IMG/VR virus record: IMGVR_UViG_3300032893_000028
Location: 1 to 64,000 of that record
From: a virus
Direction: 5' to 3' (one strand)
DNA length: 64,000 nucleotides
The position numbers were made by a program, and so were the translations under genes. Each line of letters starts with the position of its first letter. The first letter of the stretch is position 1. Shown here one piece after another: positions 18,980 through 52,804 of the stretch. The notes below the pieces were generated by a model. It had not been told where the DNA came from and did no database searches. It was given only the letters and a program-made list of their open reading frames with translations.

Positions 18980-21007
18980 ATGGCCGCACGAGTCACAGCG
19001 CTCACCGTCAACGTCGGGACCGCGCAAGAGCTCGAGGTAGCCCAGGGCGAGGACCGCGACTTCCAGCTCCTGTTCAAGGACGGCGGCGTCGCGGTCGATA
19101 TGACCGGCGCGCTCGCCGTCGTCCTGTCGGTGCGCGACGCGCAGGGCGTCCTCCTTTTCGCCCGCATGTACACGGGCTTCGTCGGCGGTGACCCGACGAG
19201 CGGCAACGTCATCTTCTCCGTCCGCTCGACGGACACGATCGAGAAGTCCGCCGGGCCGTATACGGCCGACGTCGTCCTCACCCGCTCGGACAGCTCGCGC
19301 GAGCAGCTCCTCGTCTCGTCCCCCTTCGTCGTCCTCACGTCCGAATCCCTATTCGCCGACGTCGTCACCACGCCGCCGGCCGTGCCGCTCGTCTTCGGCC
19401 TCAACTGGCTCGCCGGCTTCTGGTCGGGCGGGACGTCCGGCTACAACCTCAACGACGCGGTGCAGGCGTACGATCCGACGCTCGGCGCCACCGCCGTGTC
19501 GACCTTCCGCGCCACCGCGCAGGGCATCACCCACGCACCGATCAACGCCAGCCTGCTCCAGGTAGCGACGGGGTGGGCCTACGTTGGCCAGCACGGCGGC
19601 GCGGGCGCCACCGGGCCGACCGGTCCGCGCGGCGCGACGGGGCTGGGGACCACGGGCGTGACCGGGCCGACGGGCCCGGCCGGCGTCACCGGCGCGACGG
19701 GGCCTACCGGCCCGCGGGGCAACACGGGTCCGACGGGCGCCGCCGGCCCTACCGGTGTCACGGGTGCGACGGGGCCGACTGGCCCCGCCGGGGCCACCGG
19801 CGCCACGGGTCCGACCGGTGCGCGCGGCGCCACCGGGGTCACCGGCGCGACGGGTCCGACGGGTCCGGCCGGCGTCACGGGCGCGACGGGACCTACCGGC
19901 GCCCGAGGAGCGACGGGCCCGGCGGGGGCCACAGGCGTCACGGGCGCGACGGGACCCACCGGGCCGCAGGGCGGCGTGGGACCCAAGGGCAACACCGGGC
20001 CCGCCGGTCCCGCGGGGGCCACCGGCGCTACAGGTCCGACCGGACCGCAGGGTGCCGCGGGCGCGCGCGGCAACACGGGGCCTACCGGACCGGCCGGCGC
20101 CACGGGGGCCACCGGACCTACGGGACCCGCGGGCTCCGTGGGCGCGCGCGGCAACACCGGCCCGACCGGGCCGGCGGGGGCCACCGGCGCAACGGGCCCG
20201 ACTGGGCCCCAGGGCGCCACGGGGCCCGCCACCATCAACTTCACTGGATCGCCGACGTCGTTCGTCGCGCCCGGCGGCATGATCGTCGCCTCGCCTACGT
20301 CGCTGTCTCTGGGCATCGCCGGCGACGGGCCGACCGGGCTCGCCACGCTCTTCGTCACGGCCCAGCGCATGCGCATGGCGCAGGTCGCCGGGGTGAGTTC
20401 GCTCGTCAACCCGGCCTGGCAGATCGTGGGCGCCTCGCACCGCCTCGCGCCGTCGGGCACCGAGATCTTCGACGTCAACATCGCGCTCAACGCCACGGTC
20501 GAAATCCTCGGCGGCACGGTCTCGCAGAACCGCTCGTTCATCCTGAGCCCGCGCACGATCGGCTTCGCCTCGGGCAGCTCGGGCACCGTGAACATGGCGG
20601 CCGCGCTCGCCATCAATGGCGCGCCTATCCCGGGCACCGGGGCGGCCTTTCTCGACTCGGCGGCGTTGTGGGTGCAGACGGGCATGGCCCGTCTCGACGA
20701 CCGGCTCAAGATGGGCGCGTCGGGTACCAAGCAGCTCTGGGCGGGCTCGCTCTTCCCGGGCGCCGCCAACCAACCGCTGGCGATCGGCCCGACCAATACG
20801 GCCTGGCTCGGCCTCGGGCCCACCAGCGCCGCGCTCGGCTTCTTCGGCGTCTCGGGCTGCTTCCAGCCCTCGGGCGCCGGCGTCACGGGCGGCGCCACCG
20901 GCACCACCTTCTTCGACGCCCGCTCCAACGGTGGCACGGGTAGCCAGTACTACACGCACGCCGACCTCGTCCTCGTCTTCAAGCGTCTCGGCCTACTGGC
21001 CACGTAG
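18980..21007 (+). CDS. Collagen-like fibre protein 1
   Basis: Globular N-terminus, about 70 Gly-X-Y triplets rich in GPT/GAT/GVT, globular C-terminus. Confidence 0.8.
19604..20229 (+). repeat. Collagen Gly-X-Thr repeat tract
   Basis: [12 protein letters not shown]-type triplets. Confidence 0.9.
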
Positions 21008-29984: not shown

Positions 29985-32900
29985 ATGGCGATCGTCCTGC
30001 CTCGTCTGACGGGTGTTCTCGAGGACGGGACGGGCTCGCTCGCGCAGTCCACCCAGCAGCGCGCGTTCCAGCGCGCCGCGTCCGGCACCATCTCCATCAC
30101 CTGCTTCCGCGCCAGCGGCGCGCGCTTCAACCTCACCGGCGGCGCGCTCGTCTGGACGGTGGCGGACGGCAAGGGCGTCGAGATCTTCGCCCGCGCCGCC
30201 GACTTCGACGACGCCGCCAGCGGCGAGGCTACCTTCACCTTCGTCACCGAGGACACCGACCAGGCCGGCGGCGTCTCCAACTCCAACATCATCGGCCAGC
30301 ACGACGTCGCCTTCGTCGACAACGCGGGCACCTACGGCGTCCCGGGGGCGATCTACCAGCTCGTCCCGCCGTCGATCCTGTACCTGTCCGATCTGCTCCT
30401 GCCCATCCCGCCCGTGGTCACGCCGCTGCCGCCGCAACTCCCCTTCTCCCAGGGCGCCACCGGCGCGCCGGGGCCAACGGGGCCCGCGGGTGTGACCGGC
30501 CCGGCCGGCCCTACGGGCGCCGCGGGCCCACAGGGCGCGACCGGCCCCGCCAACGGACCGCAGGGGCCGACCGGACCGCAGGGCGCTACAGGCCCGACAG
30601 GGCCGGCGGGTACCAATGGAACCACCGGCGCGACGGGACCGACGGGGCCGCAGGGTCCTACAGGCGCCGCCGGTCCCACCGGCGTCACGGGCGCGACCGG
30701 CCCGACCGGCCCCGCAGGCGCCAACGGTGCGCAAGGCGCCACCGGCCCGACTGGCCCGCAGGGTCCAACCGGGACGCCCGGACCGACCGGCGTCACGGGG
30801 GCGACAGGTCCAACCGGCCCCGCCGGCGCACAAGGAGTGACAGGACCCGCGGGGCCGCAGGGCGCAACGGGCCCAACAGGGCCGCAAGGGCCGACAGGAC
30901 CGCTTGGCGGCGGACCTCAGGGCGTTACCGGCGCAACGGGGCCGACAGGACCGCAGGGAGCCCAAGGCGTCACGGGCGCGACGGGCCCGACGGGTCCCCA
31001 GGGAACGCAAGGCGTCCAGGGCGTCACCGGGGCGACGGGGCCGACCGGCCCGGCCGGCAGCACGGGCCCGGCGGGGCCGAACAGCCCGGCCTCCGACAGC
31101 ACAGTCGCGCTCGGAACCACCAATCTGCGCTGGCTCGGCTTATACAATGCGGGCCCGCTCGGCGGCGGCTGGACGCAGGTGGCCATGGGCGCCGCCAGCG
31201 GCTGGACCGCCAGCGCGCGCAGCTACGGCGTGGGCGTCACGGGCGCCTCGGGCGACCGCATCGTCCAGCTCCCCGCGGCGGCGCAGTTCTACGCCGGCCA
31301 GGAGCTACGCGTGCGCGACGTCGGCGGTGGCGGCAACGTCCTCGCCGTCAAGTCGGCCGGCGCCGACCGCATCAACGGCGCCACCGGGGTCACGTCTACC
31401 GCGGCCTACGCGCAGTGGCTGCTCGTCTCCGACGGCGCCTCCAACTGGTACGCGTCGCTCGGCCCGACGGGGCCGACCGGCCCGCAGGGGGCCACGGGCG
31501 CGACGGGTCCCACGGGCCCGGCGGGGACGACCGGCGCCACCGGCCCGACCGGACCCCAGGGCGCGCAGGGCGTCACGGGTGCGACCGGCCCGACGGGTCC
31601 GCAGGGGAGCCAGGGTGCGCAGGGCGTCACGGGGGCGACGGGCCCTACCGGCCCGGCTGGTGTGCAGGGGGTCACAGGCGCCACGGGTCCGACGGGGCCG
31701 CAGGGAGCCACGGGCCCGATCGGCCCGCAGGGCGCGACGGGGCCGGCGGGCGGCGGTGGCGGAGGCACGCCGACCACGCTCCAGGGCGCGTACAACGCCG
31801 GGCCCTCGGGGCCGCAGGCGATCGCGCTCGGGCCGTCGAGCGCGGGCCTGTACGGCGTGCTCATCCAGGACATGACCGGCGGGACGACGGGGCCGATCTT
31901 CGGCGTCGGCGGCCCGAGCGGCACGACCGGCTACCTGGTGGTGTACCCGACCGGCGCCTTCGCACAGGGTCTCGTGGTCGGCACTGGCAACAACTACGGT
32001 CAGTTCAACGCGGTGCCCGGCAGCAACACGGGGTACCCGAGGATCCTGCTCGCCACCGACAACATCTCGGCGGTCACCATGCTCGAGCTCGTCAACTCGC
32101 TCTACGCGACGACGAGCCAGTTCGCGCAGGCCGGCAACCTGGCGCTCTTCTCGGCCGGAGACATCTTTCAGATCTACACGCAGAACGGCGGCGTAGCGCT
32201 CCTCGACCTTCGAACGCTGACCGCCTCCTTCAACGGCGCGGTGCAGCCGGGCGCGGACGCGGGCGCCGCGCTGGGCGCAACTCTTCGGCGATGGAACGGC
32301 CTCTACAACGTGGGGCCCTTATCCGCCGCGCTGTCCGTCAAGGCCTCGCCGACGGGGACGCCGTACGTCCTGGCATCCACCGACCACTTCATCGGGTTGA
32401 CCGGGGCGTCGGGCACGAGGAGCGCGTTCCTGCCCGCGGCCAGCAGCGTTCCCGCCGGTCAATTCATCCGCGTGCAGGACGTGGCCGCCAACCCCAACGG
32501 CTTCCTGCTGGCGACCGCGACGGGGGCGACGGCCGACCGCATCAACGGCGCCACGGGGCTCACGCTGGCGGCGCGCTACGGCGGGATGATGGTCGTCTCC
32601 GACGGCGCCACCAACTGGTACGCCGCCGACATGGCGGGCTCGCTCCAGGACGCCTACGCCAACGGGGCGAGCGGGCCCGCTGTCATCGCGATCGGTCCGA
32701 CGGGCTGGTACGGCGTTCTCATCCAGGATATGGGCAGCGGCGTAGCCACCGGACCGATCTTCGCCGTGCAGAATGCGCTCGGCACCACCAACTATCTGCG
32801 CGTGCAGGCCACCGGCGTTGACACCGTCGGGTATTTCAAGGGCAAGCGCCTCGACTTGAGCGTCGGCAAGGCGATCGGAACCAACAGCTTCACCGGCGCG

Positions 32901-40627: not shown

Positions 40628-41559
<932 letters not shown>

Positions 41560-41829
41560 TTTCGTCTCCCCGTTATCCCACCACGTACGATTTGCGCAGA
41601 TATTCCCCACCGCGGCGGTCGCCGCGCGGCCCGCACCACCACGAGACACGGCTTTCGCACTCGGGCACGAGCGGCAGGAGCGGCTCGATGAAATCGTCGC
41701 GCTCGGGCTCCAGCGCCGGCAGACCGCCGCCCATCGGCGCGCGCTTGGCCTCGATCACCCGCGTCTTGTCGGCCCACATGCCCGTTACATCGGGCGTTGC
41801 GCCCATGACTTGAGTCTCGAACGACACGG

Positions 41830-44218: not shown

Positions 44219-44256
44219 AGATTCCTGTTGACAAACGCCCCCGAGCGCGCGATGTT
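44219..44256 (+). promoter_or_regulatory. Early-type promoter, copy 6
   Basis: AGATTCCTG-TTGACA-N17-GATGTT-N8-ATG. Confidence 0.65.
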
Positions 44257-48353: not shown

Positions 48354-48584
48354 CTACCTCCTGCCGAACTTGGGGAACGCCCCGACCGGCGGCGACCACG
48401 CCGCGCGAATCTCGCTCTTCTCGATGAACTCGTGGTTGCGCGACGAGTTGGACCTGCGCTCGCGCTGGCGGACGAGCGACCGCGCCCGGCGCAGATGCTT
48501 AGGCTCGGCCTCGGGCGGGCCGCCGTGAAGGCAGCGCTCGCCGGGGACGCGTGGGAGGCCGCAGTAGCAGGTCGACTTGCTCAT
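48354..48584 (-). CDS. Hypothetical protein
   Basis: Coupled ORF. Confidence 0.45.
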   Translation of the reverse strand: MSKSTCYCGLPRVPGERCLHGGPPEAEPKHLRRARSLVRQRERRSNSSRNHEFIEKSEIRAAWSPPVGAFPKFGRR

Positions 48585-49123
48585 CCATCCACCGTTCCGC
48601 AGATACCACAGAACGGACCGAGTAGCGTCCGCTTGCCGGCGTCATAGTCCTTGTGCCACTGCGCCCGGCATTGGCGCTGCGCCACGCGCGCTCGCTTCCC
48701 CGTGCTCCCCGTCCCCTTGGCGCCGCGCGCCGAGGGCGACAGCTCGTCGACGACCGTCAGGCGTACCCCGGGCACGCGGGCGAAGAGCATCTGGCAGCAG
48801 CGCTCGCCGGGCTGGACGTCGTAGGCGCGGTCGCCATGATTGAAGAGTAGCGCCTTGACCTCGCCGCGGAAGTCGCTGTCGATCGTGCCCCAGAACTCGA
48901 CCACGCCGTCGTCGAACGCCAGGCCCGAGCGCGGCACGATATGCGCCACCCAGCCCGAGGGGACCTCCATCGCGAACCCGAGCGGCACGACCGCGCGGCA
49001 GTCCGGGTAGACGCGGATCTGTGTCTCCGCCGCCGAGCAGCAGTCCAGCCCGGCCGCGCCCTCGGTCATGCGCTCGGGCAGCCGAGCCGTCGGGCGGAGA
49101 AGCTTGATGCGGACGTCGATCAC
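48581..49123 (-). CDS. dut: dUTPase (trimeric type)
   Basis: AAGLD, PRSGLA, GTIDSDFRGE and RGAKGTGSTG motifs. Confidence 0.92.
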   Translation of the reverse strand: MIDVRIKLLRPTARLPERMTEGAAGLDCCSAAETQIRVYPDCRAVVPLGFAMEVPSGWVAHIVPRSGLAFDDGVVEFWGTIDSDFRGEVKALLFNHGDRAYDVQPGERCCQMLFARVPGVRLTVVDELSPSARGAKGTGSTGKRARVAQRQCRAQWHKDYDAGKRTLLGPFCGICGTVDG

Positions 49124-49323
49124 TTCCGCTCCAGCTCGCGCTTGACCGCGCGCAAGGCCGCGCCGACGCAGCGCAGACAGGTACGGCAGAGGCGAGCCCG
49201 CTGCGATGTGGTCGGAATCATCCAACCTGCGACGAGTTCGCCTTGCTTGCATAGATCGCATACACCATCGCCCACGTTGATCGTGGTCTGAATCGTGCGA
49301 GACATCCCCGATACCTCCAGCAG

Positions 49324-49404
49324 TGGGCGCTCGTGGAGTCGAACCACGTCGGCCGAAGCTGCGGCTCTACAGGCCGCCCCGCGTCCCTAACGGTCTACGC
49401 GCCC
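49324..49404 (-). tRNA. tRNA-Tyr(GTA)
   Basis: GGGCGC acceptor stem, anticodon arm GCGGC-CT-GTA-GA-GCCGC, long variable arm, T arm CGTGG-TTCGACT-CCACG, discriminator A; CCA not encoded. Confidence 0.85.
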
Positions 49405-50021
49405 GGCTGAAGCGGGTTGACCTGCCAGCTCGGTTCAACCTGGCGCCAGACCTCGGCGGCCTGGGCGAACTCCGTGGCGTTGAGCGCTCGCAGGTTCACG
49501 TTGATGAACTGCTGGCCCGTGCGCCCGTCGAGCTTGGGCTTGCCGAGCTTGTCCACCGCCGGAACGCCATCGGACGCAAACATGAGACCGGTGAAAGGCT
49601 GTTCGGAAGAATACGTCTTGACCGTGCCGGGCGTGTCAACGTCGTGGGGCCCACATCCGCAGGCGGCCATGATGAACTTGGCGATGCGGCTGTCGTAGCC
49701 TTCCTTGTCGGCGCGCTCCATGATCGTGCGCGGGGTGCCGACCTGGACCTTGGGGTTGTTGGTCGCGACCACGCGCACTTCCACGAGGTACGTACCAATC
49801 TTGCCGATGCGCGTCCTGAAGTACTTGATGCGGTCGACCACGAGGATTTGGGAGCACTGTCCGTCGGTGAAGAGCTGCGGGTAGCGCGCGCCCCCGGCCT
49901 TCTGCGCCGCATCACTCATGTTGGCGAAGTCGTCGTAGCCGTCATCGGCGGGGGCCTGCGCCGCGGCCTGGGGCGGCGCAGTCTCCGGGGCGGTGGCGGG
50001 GCGTTTGTCGAAGATTCCCAT
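49395..50021 (-). CDS. Hypothetical protein, possible ssDNA-binding protein
   Basis: Strong AGGAG RBS, own promoter, beta-rich core, replication-region location. Confidence 0.45.
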   Translation of the reverse strand: MGIFDKRPATAPETAPPQAAAQAPADDGYDDFANMSDAAQKAGGARYPQLFTDGQCSQILVVDRIKYFRTRIGKIGTYLVEVRVVATNNPKVQVGTPRTIMERADKEGYDSRIAKFIMAACGCGPHDVDTPGTVKTYSSEQPFTGLMFASDGVPAVDKLGKPKLDGRTGQQFINVNLRALNATEFAQAAEVWRQVEPSWQVNPLQPGA

Positions 50022-50056
50022 GCTTGAATTCTCCTGTTTGAAGGTGAAATGTGAAG

Positions 50057-50099
50057 ATCATGCTCGCCTACTGGCGAACGTTCGTCAACAGAAATCTAC
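50057..50099 (-). promoter_or_regulatory. Early-type promoter, copy 7 (-10 box unclear)
   Basis: AGATTTCTG-TTGACG-AAC. Confidence 0.55.
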
Positions 50100-50101
50100 T
50101 C

Positions 50102-50362
50102 AGTCGTGAACGCGAGGGACGAGGGTAGAACTTCAATCGGCTTGCTAATCACTTGCGGCTCATTTCTCACCACTGACCGCTGAGCGCTGTTTCAGCTAAA
50201 CGCTGACCGCTCGGGTGCCGATGGTTTTTGCCTTGTGAGGGCGTCAATGTATGCCTCGCATACGCACCGTCGTGCGCGACATCGTCATACTGACCGACGC
50301 GCGACCAAACGATGGAGTTTGCCGATTCCGTCGCCCTATCCTCGTCCCTCGCGTCCACGACT
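50102..50362 (-). ncRNA. Candidate structured ncRNA with a heptamer array
   Basis: 27-bp terminal inverted repeat (50102-50128/50336-50362), nested 7-bp stem, ten AG-initiated units at 50140-50211; no credible ORF. Confidence 0.65.
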
Positions 50363-50369
50363 TCCTGAT

Positions 50370-50870
50370 CTAGACCAAGAGCGTCTTGTGATTGATCGTC
50401 TCGACGGCATCGTTGAGCGCGTCGAATGCCTCTTGCTCGGTGCAGATCATCTCCGTCCGCATCATCTCCGGGCAGTCGCACACGGTGAGCACCGGAATGT
50501 CGGCGTACTGCCCGTTCATCACCACGCGTGTGAGCTTGTTGAGCTTCTTGCTATTCTGCACCGTCAAGCTCTTCAGCCACACGATGCGCGCCTTGTGCTC
50601 CTGCAGCTCCGCCGTGGCCTGCGCCAGCGGCATTTCGCGCTCGCCCACCTTGATCACTGTTCGCGCATTGGTGACGCGCAGCTGCGATTCGAGCCCAATC
50701 AGCTCGACGCGAATCGCGTTGGCGCGCTCCAGCATCGCGTTGAACGCGAACGCCGGAGGATCCGACTCCTGATACGTCACCGACGCTGCGGCGCGGTCCA
50801 GAGTCTCCTTGTACTCGCCCTTGAGCTTCGCGATGCGCCGAAGTGCCTGCGAGATCGTTTTCCGTTCCAT
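50370..50870 (-). CDS. Coiled-coil protein, DIP1984/septicolysin-like
   Basis: TISQALRRIAKLK...LIGLESQLRVTNARTVI...LAQA...LNDAVETINHKT pattern, recognised from memory of the family. Confidence 0.6.
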   Translation of the reverse strand: MERKTISQALRRIAKLKGEYKETLDRAAASVTYQESDPPAFAFNAMLERANAIRVELIGLESQLRVTNARTVIKVGEREMPLAQATAELQEHKARIVWLKSLTVQNSKKLNKLTRVVMNGQYADIPVLTVCDCPEMMRTEMICTEQEAFDALNDAVETINHKTLLV

Positions 50871-50895
50871 CCCTGTTTACCTCCGTCGAGAAGTC

Positions 50896-50935
50896 AACCT
50901 AGACTCCTCTGTCGCGTTCGTCAACTAAAATCTTT
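50896..50935 (-). promoter_or_regulatory. Early-type promoter, copy 8
   Basis: AGATTTTAG-TTGACG-N17-TAGGTT. Confidence 0.75.
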
Positions 50936-52804
50936 CTATCCGCCGCACCGCTCGTCTTCCTCGACGAAATCTAGGCCGACCTTGTCGGCGTAGTAGAGGC
51001 GCTGGGGCTCCTTGGTCTCCGTGTCGCGCCACGCCTCGCGCCAGGCGGCGCAGAGCGCATTGCGCAGCGCGCGGTCGCCGACGTGCACGGCGCACTCGAC
51101 CTCCTCGGCGCGCTGGCCGGCGCGGTGCCAGCGCCCGAGGAGCTGCTCCCAGCGGCCGTTGGATGACGGCGGGGTCAGGACCAGGCCCCGGCGGAAGTGC
51201 TGCAGGTTCTTGCCCGTGCCATGCGCAGCGATGCTGGCGGCGCAGGCCGGCCCGCGGAACTCGACGATCTGGTCGCCCTCCGAGCCGGCGCGGAAGACCG
51301 GCAGCCCGCGCGAGGCCAGCTTCTCGCCGACAGCGCGGTGGTCGTACCAGACGACCAGCGGCCCCGCGCCCTCGCCGACCGCGCGCTCGACGTCGCGCCA
51401 GACCAGCTCGCGGTCGAGCCAGACCGTCTCCTTGGGCGGCTCGGGCCGGTAACGGTCGGCGACGGCGAGCCACGCGGCGTATTCGGCCGACTGCACCTCG
51501 CCGCGCTCGACCGCCCGGCGGAGCAGCTCCGGCGAGTCGCAGCCCGAGCGCGAGCGGCGCGAGAGCCAATCGCGCTGGAATCCGCGCCAGGCCGCGCGGG
51601 CGTCGAGCCACTCCTGGTCCTTGCCGTTCGGCCACACCCAGCGGTAGTAGAAGCCGAGGTAGAGCTGCTTGGCGAAGCGCGCCACCTCCTTGGCGTCGAC
51701 CAGGTCCTGACCGCCGACGGACCACAGCTTGCGCAGTTCGGCGAGCGCTGCGGCGACTGGGGCCGACTCGGGCATAGTCCGGCCGCGCAGCATCAGCCGG
51801 CAGTCGACCGATGCGCCGGACGTGGCCACGACACCCGGAGTCTCGGTCGCGCGGCGGCGGAAGATGCGCCAGGCGACGAGGCGGCGCACGGTCAAAGCCG
51901 AAGAGTGGTCCGAGACGAAGAGCTGTTGTTCTTCGTGCGATAGCTTGCTTATTTCGCCTTCCAGGTCCGCCGGGCCGCAGAGGTCGAGCAGTGCGCCGGG
52001 CTCTATCGGGTCGGCGCCGGCCTCGGGGTTGGGGTCCACGGCCCGGCCCCAATCGTCGGCCTCGTGGAAGCTGCGCGGGACGTGGGAGAGCGCGCGGAGC
52101 GACCGCGCGGGGAGCCGGCGCGAGCGCTTGACGCCCTTGGAGCCGAGCGTGCCCGATAAGAAGCAGACCGGCGCGTCGGGGCGCGCGTCGGCCTCGCGCC
52201 AGAAGCGCTCGGAGCGCACCGAGTCGTTCTCGAGCGTGTGCGCCTCGTTGCAGATGAAAGCGTCGGGGTCGAGGCGCTCGAGCACGTCGCCCTTCGAGGT
52301 CGAGGAGAGCTCGGAGTAGGAGACGACGCCGACGATCCGGTCGAGCGGCAGGCGAAAGTGACGGCCGTAGCGGGGGAGGTCCACGTCGAGCATCTGCGAC
52401 TTGAGTCTGGCCTCGGTCAGGATGACGGCGCGCCGGGCCTGGAGCGCGTCGGGCAGGAGGAGGCAGGCGAGCTCCTTGCCATGCCCGACGCCGACCGGGG
52501 CATAGAGCCCCCCGACGCGCTCGGCCTCGAGCAGCACGGCCGACTGTATGGGGCGCAGGCGCGGCTGGCGCGGGTGACCGTCGGGGTCGCGGCAGAGGTC
52601 GCAGCCGGGGCAGTCGGCGTTGGGGATTAACCAGATGGGCGTGAGGTCGACGGCGGCGGGGTCAAGGACGCGGCGCGGGAGGGTCGAGATCCGCTTCCAC
52701 TCCGAGGACCGCCCGACGCCCTTGGCCGCCAGCGCGCGGTCGGCGAGCGTGCCGCGCTTGATGGCGACGCCGGTCTTCTCGCGGAGGAGGTCGGAGAGGG
52801 ACAC
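50936..52804 (-). CDS. Superfamily 2 helicase
   Basis: LRPIQ, GVGHGKE, CNEAH, LSGT, GTGKNLQ and EQLLGRWHRAGQ motifs. Confidence 0.8.
   Translation of the reverse strand: MSLSDLLREKTGVAIKRGTLADRALAAKGVGRSSEWKRISTLPRRVLDPAAVDLTPIWLIPNADCPGCDLCRDPDGHPRQPRLRPIQSAVLLEAERVGGLYAPVGVGHGKELACLLLPDALQARRAVILTEARLKSQMLDVDLPRYGRHFRLPLDRIVGVVSYSELSSTSKGDVLERLDPDAFICNEAHTLENDSVRSERFWREADARPDAPVCFLSGTLGSKGVKRSRRLPARSLRALSHVPRSFHEADDWGRAVDPNPEAGADPIEPGALLDLCGPADLEGEISKLSHEEQQLFVSDHSSALTVRRLVAWRIFRRRATETPGVVATSGASVDCRLMLRGRTMPESAPVAAALAELRKLWSVGGQDLVDAKEVARFAKQLYLGFYYRWVWPNGKDQEWLDARAAWRGFQRDWLSRRSRSGCDSPELLRRAVERGEVQSAEYAAWLAVADRYRPEPPKETVWLDRELVWRDVERAVGEGAGPLVVWYDHRAVGEKLASRGLPVFRAGSEGDQIVEFRGPACAASIAAHGTGKNLQHFRRGLVLTPPSSNGRWEQLLGRWHRAGQRAEEVECAVHVGDRALRNALCAAWREAWRDTETKEPQRLYYADKVGLDFVEEDERCGG

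What the first reader, a model, noticed from the sequence alone, without database searches (positions are those of the whole stretch)
50102..50935. Coiled-coil protein plus a 260-nt structured RNA with an AG-heptamer array: candidate undescribed ribonucleoprotein module
Seen: a self-contained unit between two promoters, made of promoter copy 8, a 166-aa coiled-coil gene, and a non-coding element starting 7 nt after the stop. On the transcribed (-) strand the element's ends, AGUCGUGGACGCGAGGGACGAGGAUAG and CUACCCUCGUCCCUCGCGUUCACGACU, form a 27-bp stem with one G-U pair and one mismatch; the G-U favours pairing as RNA on this strand. A nested AAUCGGC/GCCGAUU stem (50321-50327/50135-50141) follows. 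Inside are ten consecutive units: AGCGGUC AGCGUUU AGCUGAAAC AGCGCUC AGCGGUC AGUGGUG AGAAAUG AGCCGCA AGUGAUU AGCAAGC. They share only the leading AG and the 7-nt period (one unit is 9 nt). From memory, not searched: the protein resembles the DIP1984/septicolysin-like family, whose function is unclear. Inference: fixed period with variable sequence suggests one RNA unit per subunit of an oligomeric protein, by analogy with TRAP or Hfq rings. This could be an RNA-scaffolded RNP, a type III toxin-antitoxin-like pair, or a decoy for host defence proteins.
Basis: partly seen in the sequence, partly recalled or inferred. Interest (0 to 1): 0.9.

Follow-up and report, generated by a model that had tools for sequence, protein, structure and literature searches.

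The report
Phage heptad-repeat RNA with partner protein
Right behind a small helical-protein gene, this uncultured phage encodes a real, conserved, about 260-base folded RNA that displays ten evenly spaced 7-base units. The same uncatalogued gene-plus-RNA pair recurs in many unrelated phages, so it is probably an undescribed protein-RNA particle whose job is unknown.

Summary

It is not chance. At least 20 divergent relatives of the gene (32-53% identity, loci of 43-67% G+C) carry a 200-290-nt element right after the stop codon, with the same plan. That plan is a long rod closed by both ends, variable hairpins, and a row of about ten units with consensus AGCNNUY (2 units, one long unit, 7 units).

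A covariance model built from one lineage finds the window's element end to end (45 bits). On the resulting alignment 91% of cells pair (61% when shuffled), and 36 of 40 pairs show compensatory changes. G-U outnumbers A-C about 3:1, so the fold belongs to the gene's strand.

No Rfam family matches, no paper was found, and no neighbouring gene is conserved. The protein has the DIP1984/DUF6847 fold (3KDQ) and is predicted to self-associate.

The best reading is a two-part ribonucleoprotein module with the units as protein-binding sites. Binding and function are inferred, not shown.

This scan has already flagged the same module on at least eight other genomes. I partly verified the phage T5 copy.

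The parts
50916..50933 (-). Copy of the phage's repeated promoter-like motif (AGATTTTAGTTGACGAAC, with a -35-like TTGACG) upstream of the gene. It is the likely start of the transcription unit.
   Evidence: 10 copies of the motif in the window (0.01 expected), 9 of them on the - strand. A generic sigma-70 scan did not call it. Promoter function is inferred.
50370..50870 (-). Gene for a 166-aa protein with the DIP1984/DUF6847 fold: four long helices and two beta-hairpins.
   Evidence: ORF. Pfam DUF6847 E 1.2e-5, 25.7 bits against a cut-off of 27. NCBIfam DIP1984_fam E 3.6e-5. AlphaFold2 model with pLDDT 97.9. Best solved match is 3KDQ, TM 0.78/0.85. 241 cluster representatives at E<=0.001 in 1.8 billion proteins.
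50102..50362 (-). Structured non-coding RNA of 261 nt (heptad-array RNA), co-oriented with the gene and starting 7 nt after its stop codon.
   Evidence: Fold z = -6.4. Covariance model R1, built from another lineage, matches 50112-50352(-) end to end at 45 bits, E about 1e-9. Covariation is shown.
50336..50362 (-). 5' strand of the closing rod P1 (purine-rich).
   Evidence: Family-wide pairing.
50102..50128 (-). 3' strand of the closing rod P1 (pyrimidine-rich).
   Evidence: Family-wide pairing.
50321..50327 (-). 5' strand of the top of the rod (AAUCGGC), pairing with 50135-50141.
   Evidence: This is helix 4 of the family structure, 97.7% paired.
50135..50141 (-). 3' strand of the top of the rod (GCCGAUU). 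It overlaps the last unit by 2 nt.
50213..50229 (-). A-rich, semi-conserved motif before the array (AAAAACCAUCGGCACCC; family form AAAACGAUACCGRCA).
   Evidence: Conserved block in alignment A2. Its role is unknown.
50140..50211 (-). Array of ten units: AGCGGUC AGCGUUU AGCUGAAAC AGCGCUC AGCGGUC AGUGGUG AGAAAUG AGCCGCA AGUGAUU AGCAAGC. Probably single-stranded binding sites.
   Evidence: No covarying helix was found inside the array.
50080..50097 (-). Next copy of the promoter-like motif, 5 nt after the 3' end of the RNA. It marks the start of the next unit, the 208-aa ORF 49395-50021.

Best explanation
This is a two-part accessory module of tailed phages. A small DIP1984/DUF6847-fold protein gene is co-transcribed with a cognate structured RNA of about 260 nt. 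The two ends of the RNA pair into a rod of about 30 bp. By analogy with rRNA and phage processing stalks, this rod could be cut by a double-strand-specific RNase to release a discrete stable RNA. The rod carries a junction with variable hairpins and a 72-nt single-stranded row of ten AGCNNUY units.

The most likely mechanism is that the self-associating protein reads the invariant AG(C) of each unit at 7-nt spacing. Several protomers, possibly five dimers, would then line up on one RNA to make a defined ribonucleoprotein particle that acts in trans.

Shown here:
- the RNA structure is real;
- it is conserved by compensatory change;
- it lies on the gene's strand;
- among the loci examined here the full RNA plan was found only directly behind this protein gene.

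Inferred:
- co-transcription and processing;
- direct binding of the protein to the units, and the stoichiometry;
- any cellular role. A role in tRNA/RNA metabolism or counter-defence is only hinted at by frequent placement in tRNA clusters.
For: Recurrence behind homologues:
- Relatives of the gene were found in 4 viral and 23 metagenome contigs.
- About 20 of them, in roughly 15 lineages, carry the element right after the stop codon. It has a long closing stem and a 7-nt array. Locus G+C ranges from 43 to 67%.

Unit array: ten aligned units arranged as 2 units, one long unit of 9-17 nt, then 7 units. Over 118 seven-nt units the consensus is A95 G90 C80 N N U75 Y.

Covariance model:
- R1 was built from one lineage only.
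- It finds 19 elements at E<=0.05, including window 50112-50352(-) at 45 bits.
- Every hit lies just 3' of the protein gene on its strand.
- It matches none of the 14 pattern-only loci that lack the protein.

Base-pair counts on the model's alignment:
- 91.4% of cells are paired, against 60.8 +/- 1.6 when shuffled and 41-51% when the partners are slid.
- 36 of 40 pairs change on both sides.
- The covariation score is 0.374 against 0.110.
- Caveat: the alignment was fitted to the model.

Arm matching: after correcting for composition, each 5' arm prefers its own 3' arm. The cognate arm ranks first in 13 of 20 cases and in the top two in 18 of 20.

Strand: 48 G-U against 17 A-C in the rods of 14 lineages. 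The fold therefore belongs to the sense strand.

Independent pattern scan: a scan of 2.9 million viral contigs for the array gave 22 hits. Eight have a family protein (hmmsearch E 1e-43 to 1e-67) ending about 150 nt upstream on the same strand. The rest are simple tandem repeats or chance matches.

Neighbours: no neighbouring gene is conserved across lineages, so the pair is the unit of inheritance.

Protein self-association:
- Four copies scored 0.63; the best of 3 controls scored 0.02.
- The mark was reached by 20 of 30 proteins solved as pairs of one chain and by 1 of 23 solved as single chains.
- The runs agree in at least 87% of contacts, and partner pLDDT is at least 84.
- A like protein (3KDQ, four chains) is solved, so the pass may come from memory.

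Conserved residues: the most conserved polar residues outside the predicted interface are Q8, R11, K17, N153, E157 and N160. By their positions in the N- and C-terminal helices of the model they probably lie together and could form a ligand site. This placement is inferred, not measured on the model.

Phage T5: a weak relative of the gene, T5.085, is followed by an unannotated 363-nt stretch. That stretch has a 20-bp closing stem (z = -5.8) and A-rich units at 7-nt spacing. The unit motif therefore appears to change with the protein subfamily.
Against: - No experiment or transcript data exist for this phage.
- The protein family is roughly neutral (median pI 6.6) and has no known RNA-binding domain.
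- The predicted interface is a two-fold dimer contact. This does not by itself explain an odd 2(3)+7 arrangement of units or a ring.
- Ten sites could equally serve a host protein.
- Thermodynamic folding alone does not separate the strands: z = -6.4 for the sense strand and -7.2 for the antisense.
- Within-lineage comparisons gave 82 pair-preserving changes against 61 disruptive ones on automatic alignments. The inner parts of the fold are therefore less certain than the rod.
- No additional covarying helix or pseudoknot was found.
Confidence: 0.55

Rival explanations
1. The element is a cis-acting 3' untranslated region. It would stabilise the mRNA, end transcription before the next promoter, or let the protein feed back on its own message, with no trans-acting particle.
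For: - The element always sits 1-43 nt after the stop codon on the same strand.
- In the window it ends 5 nt before the next promoter motif.
- Several relatives have a short U-run just after the rod: L009 GUUUUUG, L010 CCCUUUUC, L012 GUUUCUU.
Against: - A conserved 200-290-nt architecture is far more than a terminator or stabiliser needs. It has about ten invariant AG positions, GNRA/UUCG-type hairpins and a conserved motif before the array.
- Many relatives have no U-run after the rod: L016, L018, L019, L020.
- The array lies in the loop, so binding there would not open the rod.
- The generic terminator scan called nothing here.
Confidence: 0.15
2. The RNA is a sponge or decoy. The ten units would bind and titrate a host RNA-binding protein or nuclease, for example a defence effector. 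The neighbouring protein would help to load, protect or process the RNA.
For: - Multiple identical short sites on one RNA is the design of known protein sponges (CsrB/RsmZ; from established knowledge).
- The module lies in or beside tRNA clusters in L007, L011 and L016, and 0.7 kb from this phage's only tRNA. In T5-like phages such regions hold counter-defence genes (bioRxiv 10.1101/2023.03.15.532788).
Against: - The unit motif differs between protein subfamilies: AGCNNUY here and A-rich AAAG-type units in T5. This fits a co-evolving phage-encoded reader better than one conserved host target across hosts of 39-65% G+C.
- No host factor with a 7-nt NAG period is known outside Bacillus HutP.
Confidence: 0.12
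3. The pair is a toxin-antitoxin-like system of type III kind, in which the RNA neutralises a toxic protein.
For: A protein gene is tightly linked to a repeat-bearing RNA and inherited as a pair.
Against: - Known type III antitoxins are tandem repeats of 34-36 nt placed upstream of an endoribonuclease toxin, which cuts them into monomers (established knowledge of ToxIN, CptIN and TenpIN).
- Here the units are 7 nt, the RNA is downstream, and it folds into one closed molecule.
- The protein has a helical DIP1984 fold with no nuclease match.
Confidence: 0.05
4. The element acts at the DNA level, as a replication or packaging signal, a single-strand initiation site, or a miniature transposable element with terminal inverted repeats.
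For: - 27-bp terminal inverted repeats.
- The element lies next to a helicase-like gene, 50936-52804 (weak PHROG DNA helicase match).
- Both strands fold equally well in silico.
Against: - It is single-copy in the genome.
- Its position and orientation relative to the protein gene are fixed in every lineage, while all other neighbours differ.
- G-U outnumbers A-C about 3:1 in the rods. This is not expected for a duplex-DNA palindrome, though a single-stranded DNA form of the sense strand is not strictly excluded.
- The arms differ between lineages while staying complementary.
Confidence: 0.03

Closest known systems
HutP with the hut leader RNA, and TRAP with the trp leader RNA (Bacillus subtilis)
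   Same: An RNA presents a row of NAG motifs at fixed spacing to an oligomeric protein. HutP sites are NAG plus four spacer bases, a 7-nt period in two sets separated by a linker (established knowledge). Here there are ten AG(C) units of 7 nt in two sets, split by a longer unit.
   Different: - The protein fold is unrelated: a helical bundle with two beta-hairpins, not the HutP alpha/beta hexamer or the TRAP beta-sandwich 11-mer.
- The RNA lies 3' of the gene as a closed 260-nt molecule, not a 5' leader that switches a terminator.
- The predicted self-contact is a dimer, not a ring.
DIP1984 family / Pfam DUF6847 (NF038048, PF20935; crystal structure 3KDQ; often annotated 'septicolysin')
   Same: Same length class and same fold: Foldseek TM 0.78/0.85 to 3KDQ and a full-length profile alignment to 3KDQ at E 0.0067. 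Atlas neighbours carry DUF6847 or the name 'putative septicolysin'.
   Different: The window's protein scores just under both curated cut-offs. It belongs to a mostly viral subfamily with no hit in named phages or in 185,579 species genomes by the searches run here. The family has no known function and no partner RNA on record.
Ro60 (Rsr) with bacterial Y RNAs
   Same: A protein gene is paired with a non-coding RNA whose two ends form a long stem. Such pairs are found in bacteria and phages and are often placed near tRNA or RNA-repair genes (established knowledge). Three relatives here sit in tRNA clusters.
   Different: There is no TROVE/vWA protein and no Y RNA match in Rfam. Y RNAs have no 7-nt unit array. 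No RNA ligase was found among 20 immediate neighbours tested.
Type III toxin-antitoxin systems (ToxIN)
   Same: A protein is inherited together with a repeat-bearing RNA.
   Different: Repeat length (7 nt against 34-36 nt), gene order, closed RNA fold and protein fold all differ.

Membership tests
DIP1984 / DUF6847 protein family | Score at or above the curated cut-off of the family model. | tested here: not met
   Pfam PF20935.2 gives 25.7 bits against a cut-off of 27. NCBIfam NF038048 gives 24 bits against 70. The precomputed table lists PF20935.3 for this protein and for 4 of its 8 close relatives. The protein is therefore borderline: a divergent subfamily.
DIP1984 / DUF6847 protein family | Same three-dimensional fold as the solved member 3KDQ, over the whole length. 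| tested here: met
   The model has pLDDT 97.9. Foldseek gives 3kdq_C at E 6.8e-4, probability 1.00, TM 0.78/0.85 over 165 columns. A profile of 128 relatives aligns positions 3-166 to 3kdq_A residues 3-152 at E 0.0067.
Heptad-array RNA that follows DIP1984-like genes (uncatalogued; flagged earlier by this scan) | Lies directly 3' of a DIP1984-like gene on the same strand. | tested here: met
   The gap in the window is 7 nt. The same arrangement holds in all 19 model hits and in 8 pattern hits.
Heptad-array RNA that follows DIP1984-like genes (uncatalogued; flagged earlier by this scan) | The 5' and 3' ends pair into a long rod kept by compensatory changes. | tested here: met
   helices 1-4 are 83-98% paired, and 31 of their 32 pairs change on both sides. 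Supported also.
Heptad-array RNA that follows DIP1984-like genes (uncatalogued; flagged earlier by this scan) | A row of about nine to ten units at 7-nt spacing with an invariant dinucleotide. | tested here: met
   Ten units at 50211-50140. Family consensus AGCNNUY.
Rfam RAGATH-27 (RF03100), named by earlier notes as the nearest catalogued motif | Match to the family's covariance model. | tested here: not met
   No Rfam match at gathering score in the window or in 20 related loci. None at E<=10 in 49200-51000. None at E<=1 in the T5 region.
TRAP / HutP-type attenuation proteins | Ring-forming beta-sandwich (TRAP) or alpha/beta hexamer (HutP) fold. | tested here: not met
   The model is four helices plus two beta-hairpins. 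No TRAP or HutP chain appears among the structural matches.
TRAP / HutP-type attenuation proteins | Target RNA is a 5' leader in which binding decides between terminator and antiterminator. | tested here: not met
   The array lies 3' of the gene, inside the loop of the rod, and a separate promoter motif follows.
Type III toxin-antitoxin | Tandem RNA repeats of about 34-36 nt upstream of an endoribonuclease toxin gene. | tested here: not met
   The units are 7 nt, the RNA is downstream, and there is no nuclease family match.
MITE / transposable element with terminal inverted repeats | Several copies in a genome at unrelated sites. | tested here: not met
   One copy in the 73,971-bp genome. Its place relative to the gene is fixed in all lineages.

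The most novel reading that the evidence does not exclude
A new class of ribonucleoprotein particle, widespread in tailed phages and including the model phage T5. In it, protomers of a DIP1984-fold helical protein measure out a single-stranded RNA at exactly 7 nt per protomer: ten sites, perhaps five dimers, as in a miniature nucleocapsid. The closed, rod-stalked particle would act in trans on host tRNA/RNA metabolism or on RNA-targeting immunity. This would give a function to a large domain-of-unknown-function family and reveal a new way for proteins to read RNA.
Probability: 0.25. Interest if true: 0.9.

Novelty: categorically new. Interest (0 to 1): 0.8.

Why it matters
- The RNA is conserved by covariation across phages of very different base composition, has no Rfam family, and no paper on it was found.
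- It is tied to a protein family of unknown function that has had a crystal structure since 2009.
- If the pair forms a particle, it would define a new RNA family, give DUF6847/DIP1984 a ligand, and add a protein-RNA recognition mode with a strict 7-nt register.
- A weakly related copy sits in an unannotated gap of phage T5, behind gene T5.085. The question is therefore directly testable in a standard laboratory system.
- Frequent placement beside phage tRNA genes points to RNA metabolism or counter-defence, both active fields.
- This scan has flagged the same module on at least eight other genomes, so it is a recurrent, general feature and not a curiosity of one contig.

Tried and rejected
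Related loci came from the search for related loci instead.
- blastn of the region against named phages: no match.
- tblastn of the protein against named phages: no match.
- First single-protein scan of viral contigs: nothing.
- Genome-contig scan with alignment A1: no relative. Alignment A3 was too diverse to make patterns.
- Sequencing runs: no RNA holder is listed, only two wetland DNA runs, one of which may be the source.
- Papers: nothing for DUF6847, DIP1984, 3KDQ (in context), RF03100 or RAGATH-27.
- Cluster look-up of ten distant representatives gave no useful names. One, P0130, is a plant coiled-coil protein and a spurious hit.

**Analyses that did not work well or gave a negative result**
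- RNAalifold on MAFFT alignments of divergent lineages gave poor, partly spurious stems. I replaced this with a model built from one lineage and with model-guided alignment.
- A search for extra covarying helices or a pseudoknot in the model alignment found only the rod.
- A possible 4-bp helix between the motif before the array (ACCG) and unit 1 (CGGU) fits about 11 of 16 lineages read by eye, with one compensatory case (L012, AAUG/CAUU). It is too weak to claim.

**Leads followed and dropped or weakened**
- T5 anti-retron link. Rad is a 189-aa TOPRIM-like protein, so it is not this family. The Ec83-blocking ORF72/73 lie in a tRNA-rich fragment, whereas T5.085 has no tRNA within 41-46.5 kb. 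I dropped this lead.
- Pfam PF20935 alone does not detect T5.085. Only my family profile does, and weakly: E 3e-4 and hhalign probability 46% over 38 columns.
- Conserved neighbours: none. Twenty flanking proteins gave mixed or no families and no RNA ligase.
- Rho, Hfq, CsrA or toxin cleavage-site decoy ideas were considered from memory. I set them aside because the invariant AG at 7-nt spacing fits none of their known motifs.
Full report
**Source and observation**

The window is part of a 73,971-bp IMG/VR phage record with direct terminal repeats. A near-identical contig and two DNA runs come from wetland metagenomes.

On the - strand, ORF 50370-50870 encodes 166 aa. Seven bases after its TAG stop, a 27-nt arm (50336-50362) begins. 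Its only other match in the window is the opposite arm at 50102-50128, with none expected by chance. Read by hand, the stem has 25 Watson-Crick pairs, one G-U and one A-C.

The 276-nt stretch folds at -126 kcal/mol (z = -6.4), with the nested AAUCGGC/GCCGAUU helix. The antisense strand folds as well (z = -7.2), so energy alone does not choose a strand.

The ten units lie at 50211-50140. The unit is bracketed by two copies of a motif, AGATTTTTGTTGACRAAC, at 50916-50933 and 50080-50097. The motif occurs 10 times in the window against 0.01 expected. The element is single-copy in the genome.

**Not catalogued**

- Rfam 15 gives no match at gathering score in the whole window.
- It gives nothing for the element at E<=10.
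- It gives nothing but tRNAs in 20 related loci.
- Full-text searches for the protein family names, the PDB code and the Rfam motif named by earlier notes found no relevant paper.

**The protein**

- Pfam DUF6847 (E 1.2e-5) and NCBIfam DIP1984_fam (E 3.6e-5) match just under their cut-offs.
- A search of 1.8 billion cluster representatives found 241 relatives at E<=0.001, nearly all 160-180 aa.
- An AlphaFold2 model from 128 of them has pLDDT 97.9: four long helices and two beta-hairpins.
- The only significant solved match is 3KDQ, the DIP1984 protein of unknown function, at TM 0.78/0.85. The family profile aligns to it over the full length at E 0.0067.
- Atlas neighbours are mostly viral clusters, some carrying DUF6847, plus bacterial 'putative septicolysin' clusters.
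- The family is about neutral in charge (median pI 6.6).

Four copies are predicted to self-associate through a symmetric interface, residues 24-133:
- The score is 0.63; the best of 3 controls is 0.02.
- The mark was reached by 20 of 30 proteins solved as pairs of one chain and by 1 of 23 solved as single chains.
- The runs agree in at least 87% of contacts, and partner pLDDT is at least 84.
- 3KDQ has four chains, so the pass may come from memory.
- The job held four copies and my own alignment, unlike the calibration.

The conserved polar residues outside that interface are Q8, R11, K17, N153, E157 and N160. They lie in the N- and C-terminal helices of the model and probably sit together. 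I propose this, by inference, as a ligand site.

**The RNA is conserved with the gene**

Relatives of the gene (32-53% identical) were fetched from 4 viral and 23 metagenome contigs. In nearly every one with enough downstream sequence, a 200-290-nt element starts 1-43 nt after the stop. It is closed by a long stem whose sequence differs from lineage to lineage, and it holds a row of 7-nt units. The loci range from 43 to 67% G+C.

The row aligns across all 23 sequences and is the best-conserved part. Ten units are arranged as two of 7 nt, a third of 9-17 nt, then seven of 7 nt. The consensus is A95 G90 C80 N N U75 Y over 118 units.

Before the row lies a semi-conserved A-rich motif (AAAACGAUACCGRCA). 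Before that come hairpins that vary in number and often have GCAA or UUCG loops. One hairpin is absent in L025 and L029 although the rest of the element is kept, so the variable domain is dispensable.

**Formal tests of the structure**

1. *Strand.* In gapless-to-lightly-gapped alignments of each 5' arm with the reverse complement of its 3' arm, G-U outnumbers A-C 48 to 17 in 14 lineages. L005 was left out because its alignment ran past the stem. Neutral decay of a DNA palindrome would give 1:1, so the fold is selected on the gene's strand.

2. *Arm matching.* Duplex energies of every 5' arm with every 3' region, double-centred for composition, rank the cognate partner first in 13 of 20 cases and in the top two in 18 of 20. 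The exceptions are mostly sister lineages.

3. *Covariance model.* Model R1 was built from four sequences of a single lineage with a hand-set structure: the rod plus two hairpins, with the array left open. It finds 19 elements at E<=0.05, including window 50112-50352(-) end to end at 45 bits. All hits lie just behind the protein gene on its strand. It finds none of the pattern-only loci that lack the protein.

4. *Pair counts on that alignment.*
   - 91.4% of cells pair, against 60.8 +/- 1.6 when shuffled and 41-51% when the partners are slid.
   - 36 of 40 pairs change on both sides.
   - The covariation score is 0.374 against 0.110.
   - The alignment is fitted to the model, which favours the structure, but the margin over both controls is large.

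5. *Within-lineage comparisons.* On automatic alignments these gave 40 double and 42 single pair-preserving changes against 61 disruptive ones. The rod is solid; the inner folds are less certain.

6. *Further helices.* No further covarying helix or pseudoknot was detected, and none inside the array.

**Linkage**

An independent scan of 2.9 million viral contigs for the array pattern gave 22 hits, about the number expected by chance from my own estimate. Eight of them have a family protein (E 1e-43 to 1e-67) ending about 150 nt upstream on the same strand. The others are perfect tandem heptamer repeats or isolated matches without the architecture.

All-against-all comparison of ORFs in 21 loci found no other gene shared across lineages. 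Twenty immediate neighbours gave mixed or no Pfam families and no RNA ligase. The gene and the RNA are thus inherited as a pair and move between contexts.

Three relatives sit in or beside tRNA clusters (L007, L011, L016). This phage's only tRNA, a tRNA-Tyr, lies 0.7 kb downstream.

**Earlier findings of this scan**

After I had formed this reading, a look-up showed that the scan has flagged the same gene-plus-RNA pair on at least eight other genomes. Follow-up agents reached similar verdicts and named T5 relatives, RAGATH-27, tRNA look-alikes, RNA-repair neighbours and HutP/TRAP as points of comparison. I tested some of these.

- *T5.* My family profile hits T5.085 weakly: E 3e-4 and hhalign probability 46% over 38 columns. 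PF20935 alone does not. The 363 nt after T5.085 are unannotated. They contain an ACCGACA-type motif and A-rich units at 7-nt spacing, and they close with a 20-bp stem (z = -5.8). The T5 claim is plausible but weakly supported here. Model R1 does not reach it.
- *RAGATH-27.* It matches neither this subfamily nor the T5 stretch.
- *RNA-repair neighbours.* None were seen in this subfamily.
- *tRNA look-alike.* A degenerate tRNA-Trp-like element abuts the RNA in L007.

**Interpretation**

The best-supported reading is a two-part ribonucleoprotein module. The steps shown are listed above. The remaining steps are inferred.

- *Co-transcription.* There is no promoter motif between the gene and the RNA, and the gap is 7 nt.
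- *Release.* The roughly 30-bp rod may be cut by a double-strand-specific RNase. This is an analogy with rRNA and phage processing stalks and is untested.
- *Recognition.* The self-associating protein may read the invariant AG(C) at 7-nt spacing.

The 7-nt NAG register is that of HutP sites, and the many-site design is that of TRAP. But the protein fold, the gene order and the closed RNA are different. It may work like them, but it is not a member of their families.

I give 0.55 to the particle reading. The rivals are a cis-acting 3' region (0.15), a sponge for a host protein (0.12), a type III-like toxin-antitoxin pair (0.05) and a DNA-level element (0.03). The cellular role is open. Placement near tRNA genes hints at RNA metabolism or counter-defence.

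**Verdict**

This is a real, conserved and uncatalogued RNA with a partner protein of unknown function. Interest is high, because the family is widespread and testable in T5.

Noticed in passing
window 49323-49404 (-): This is the only tRNA ARAGORN finds in the window: an 82-nt tRNA-Tyr (GTA), 0.7 kb downstream of the module. Rfam's tRNA model does not reach its gathering score here; the best clan hit is tRNA-Sec at 25.6 bits against a gathering score of 47. The 3' end of ORF 49395-50021 overlaps it by 10 nt. Phage tRNA-Tyr is a known answer to a tRNA-Tyr-cutting retron effector (bioRxiv 10.1101/2023.03.15.532788).
   Followed up: partly
window 4755-62158, ten sites: A repeated 18-nt motif, AGATTTTTGTTGACRAAC, occurs ten times: nine on the - strand and one on the + strand at 44219. 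It looks like an upstream element plus a -35 box of a phage-specific promoter class. The generic sigma-70 scan does not call it.
   Followed up: partly
window 19590-20230 and 30450-31920 (+): Long runs of 9-nt-periodic G+C-rich repeats (GGN CCN ACN type) that read as collagen-like Gly-X-Y repeats, probably in tail-fibre genes (repeat finder families D1-D6).
   Followed up: no
window 40790-41040: A 250-nt run of imperfect GGC/GTC triplet repeats (family D4).
   Followed up: no
window 48581-49261 (-): A 226-aa ORF whose sequence reads like a dUTPase (motifs such as GxIDxDYRGE-like 'GTIDSDFRGE'). This was judged by eye only and not searched.
   Followed up: no
L055 2143-2505 (-) = phage T5 AY543070 43142-43504: An unannotated 363-nt gap behind T5.085 folds with a 20-bp closing stem (z = -5.8) and carries A-rich units at 7-nt spacing. 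A separate 'rnaX, stable RNA with unknown functions' is annotated about 1.6 kb further on (40848-41566).
   Followed up: partly
L007 4719-4792 (+): In a 324-kb phage contig the heptad RNA sits inside an 18-tRNA cluster. It is followed at once by a degenerate tRNA-Trp(CCA)-like element that ARAGORN calls only at a relaxed threshold.
   Followed up: partly
L031, L045, L051 (GGTTAGA/GGTTAGC) and L052 (GGTCAGA): Unrelated viral contigs hold perfect tandem arrays of 7-nt repeats, 10-16 copies, with no DIP1984-like gene nearby. L035, L044 and L050 hold short CAGCNNT runs followed by their complement. These are other kinds of heptamer repeat and should not be confused with this RNA.
   Followed up: no
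L016 5665-5741 (+): ARAGORN calls a tRNA with anticodon TCA (read as SeC or an opal suppressor) about 0.9 kb downstream of the module in a 54-kb contig that also holds seven other tRNAs.
   Followed up: no
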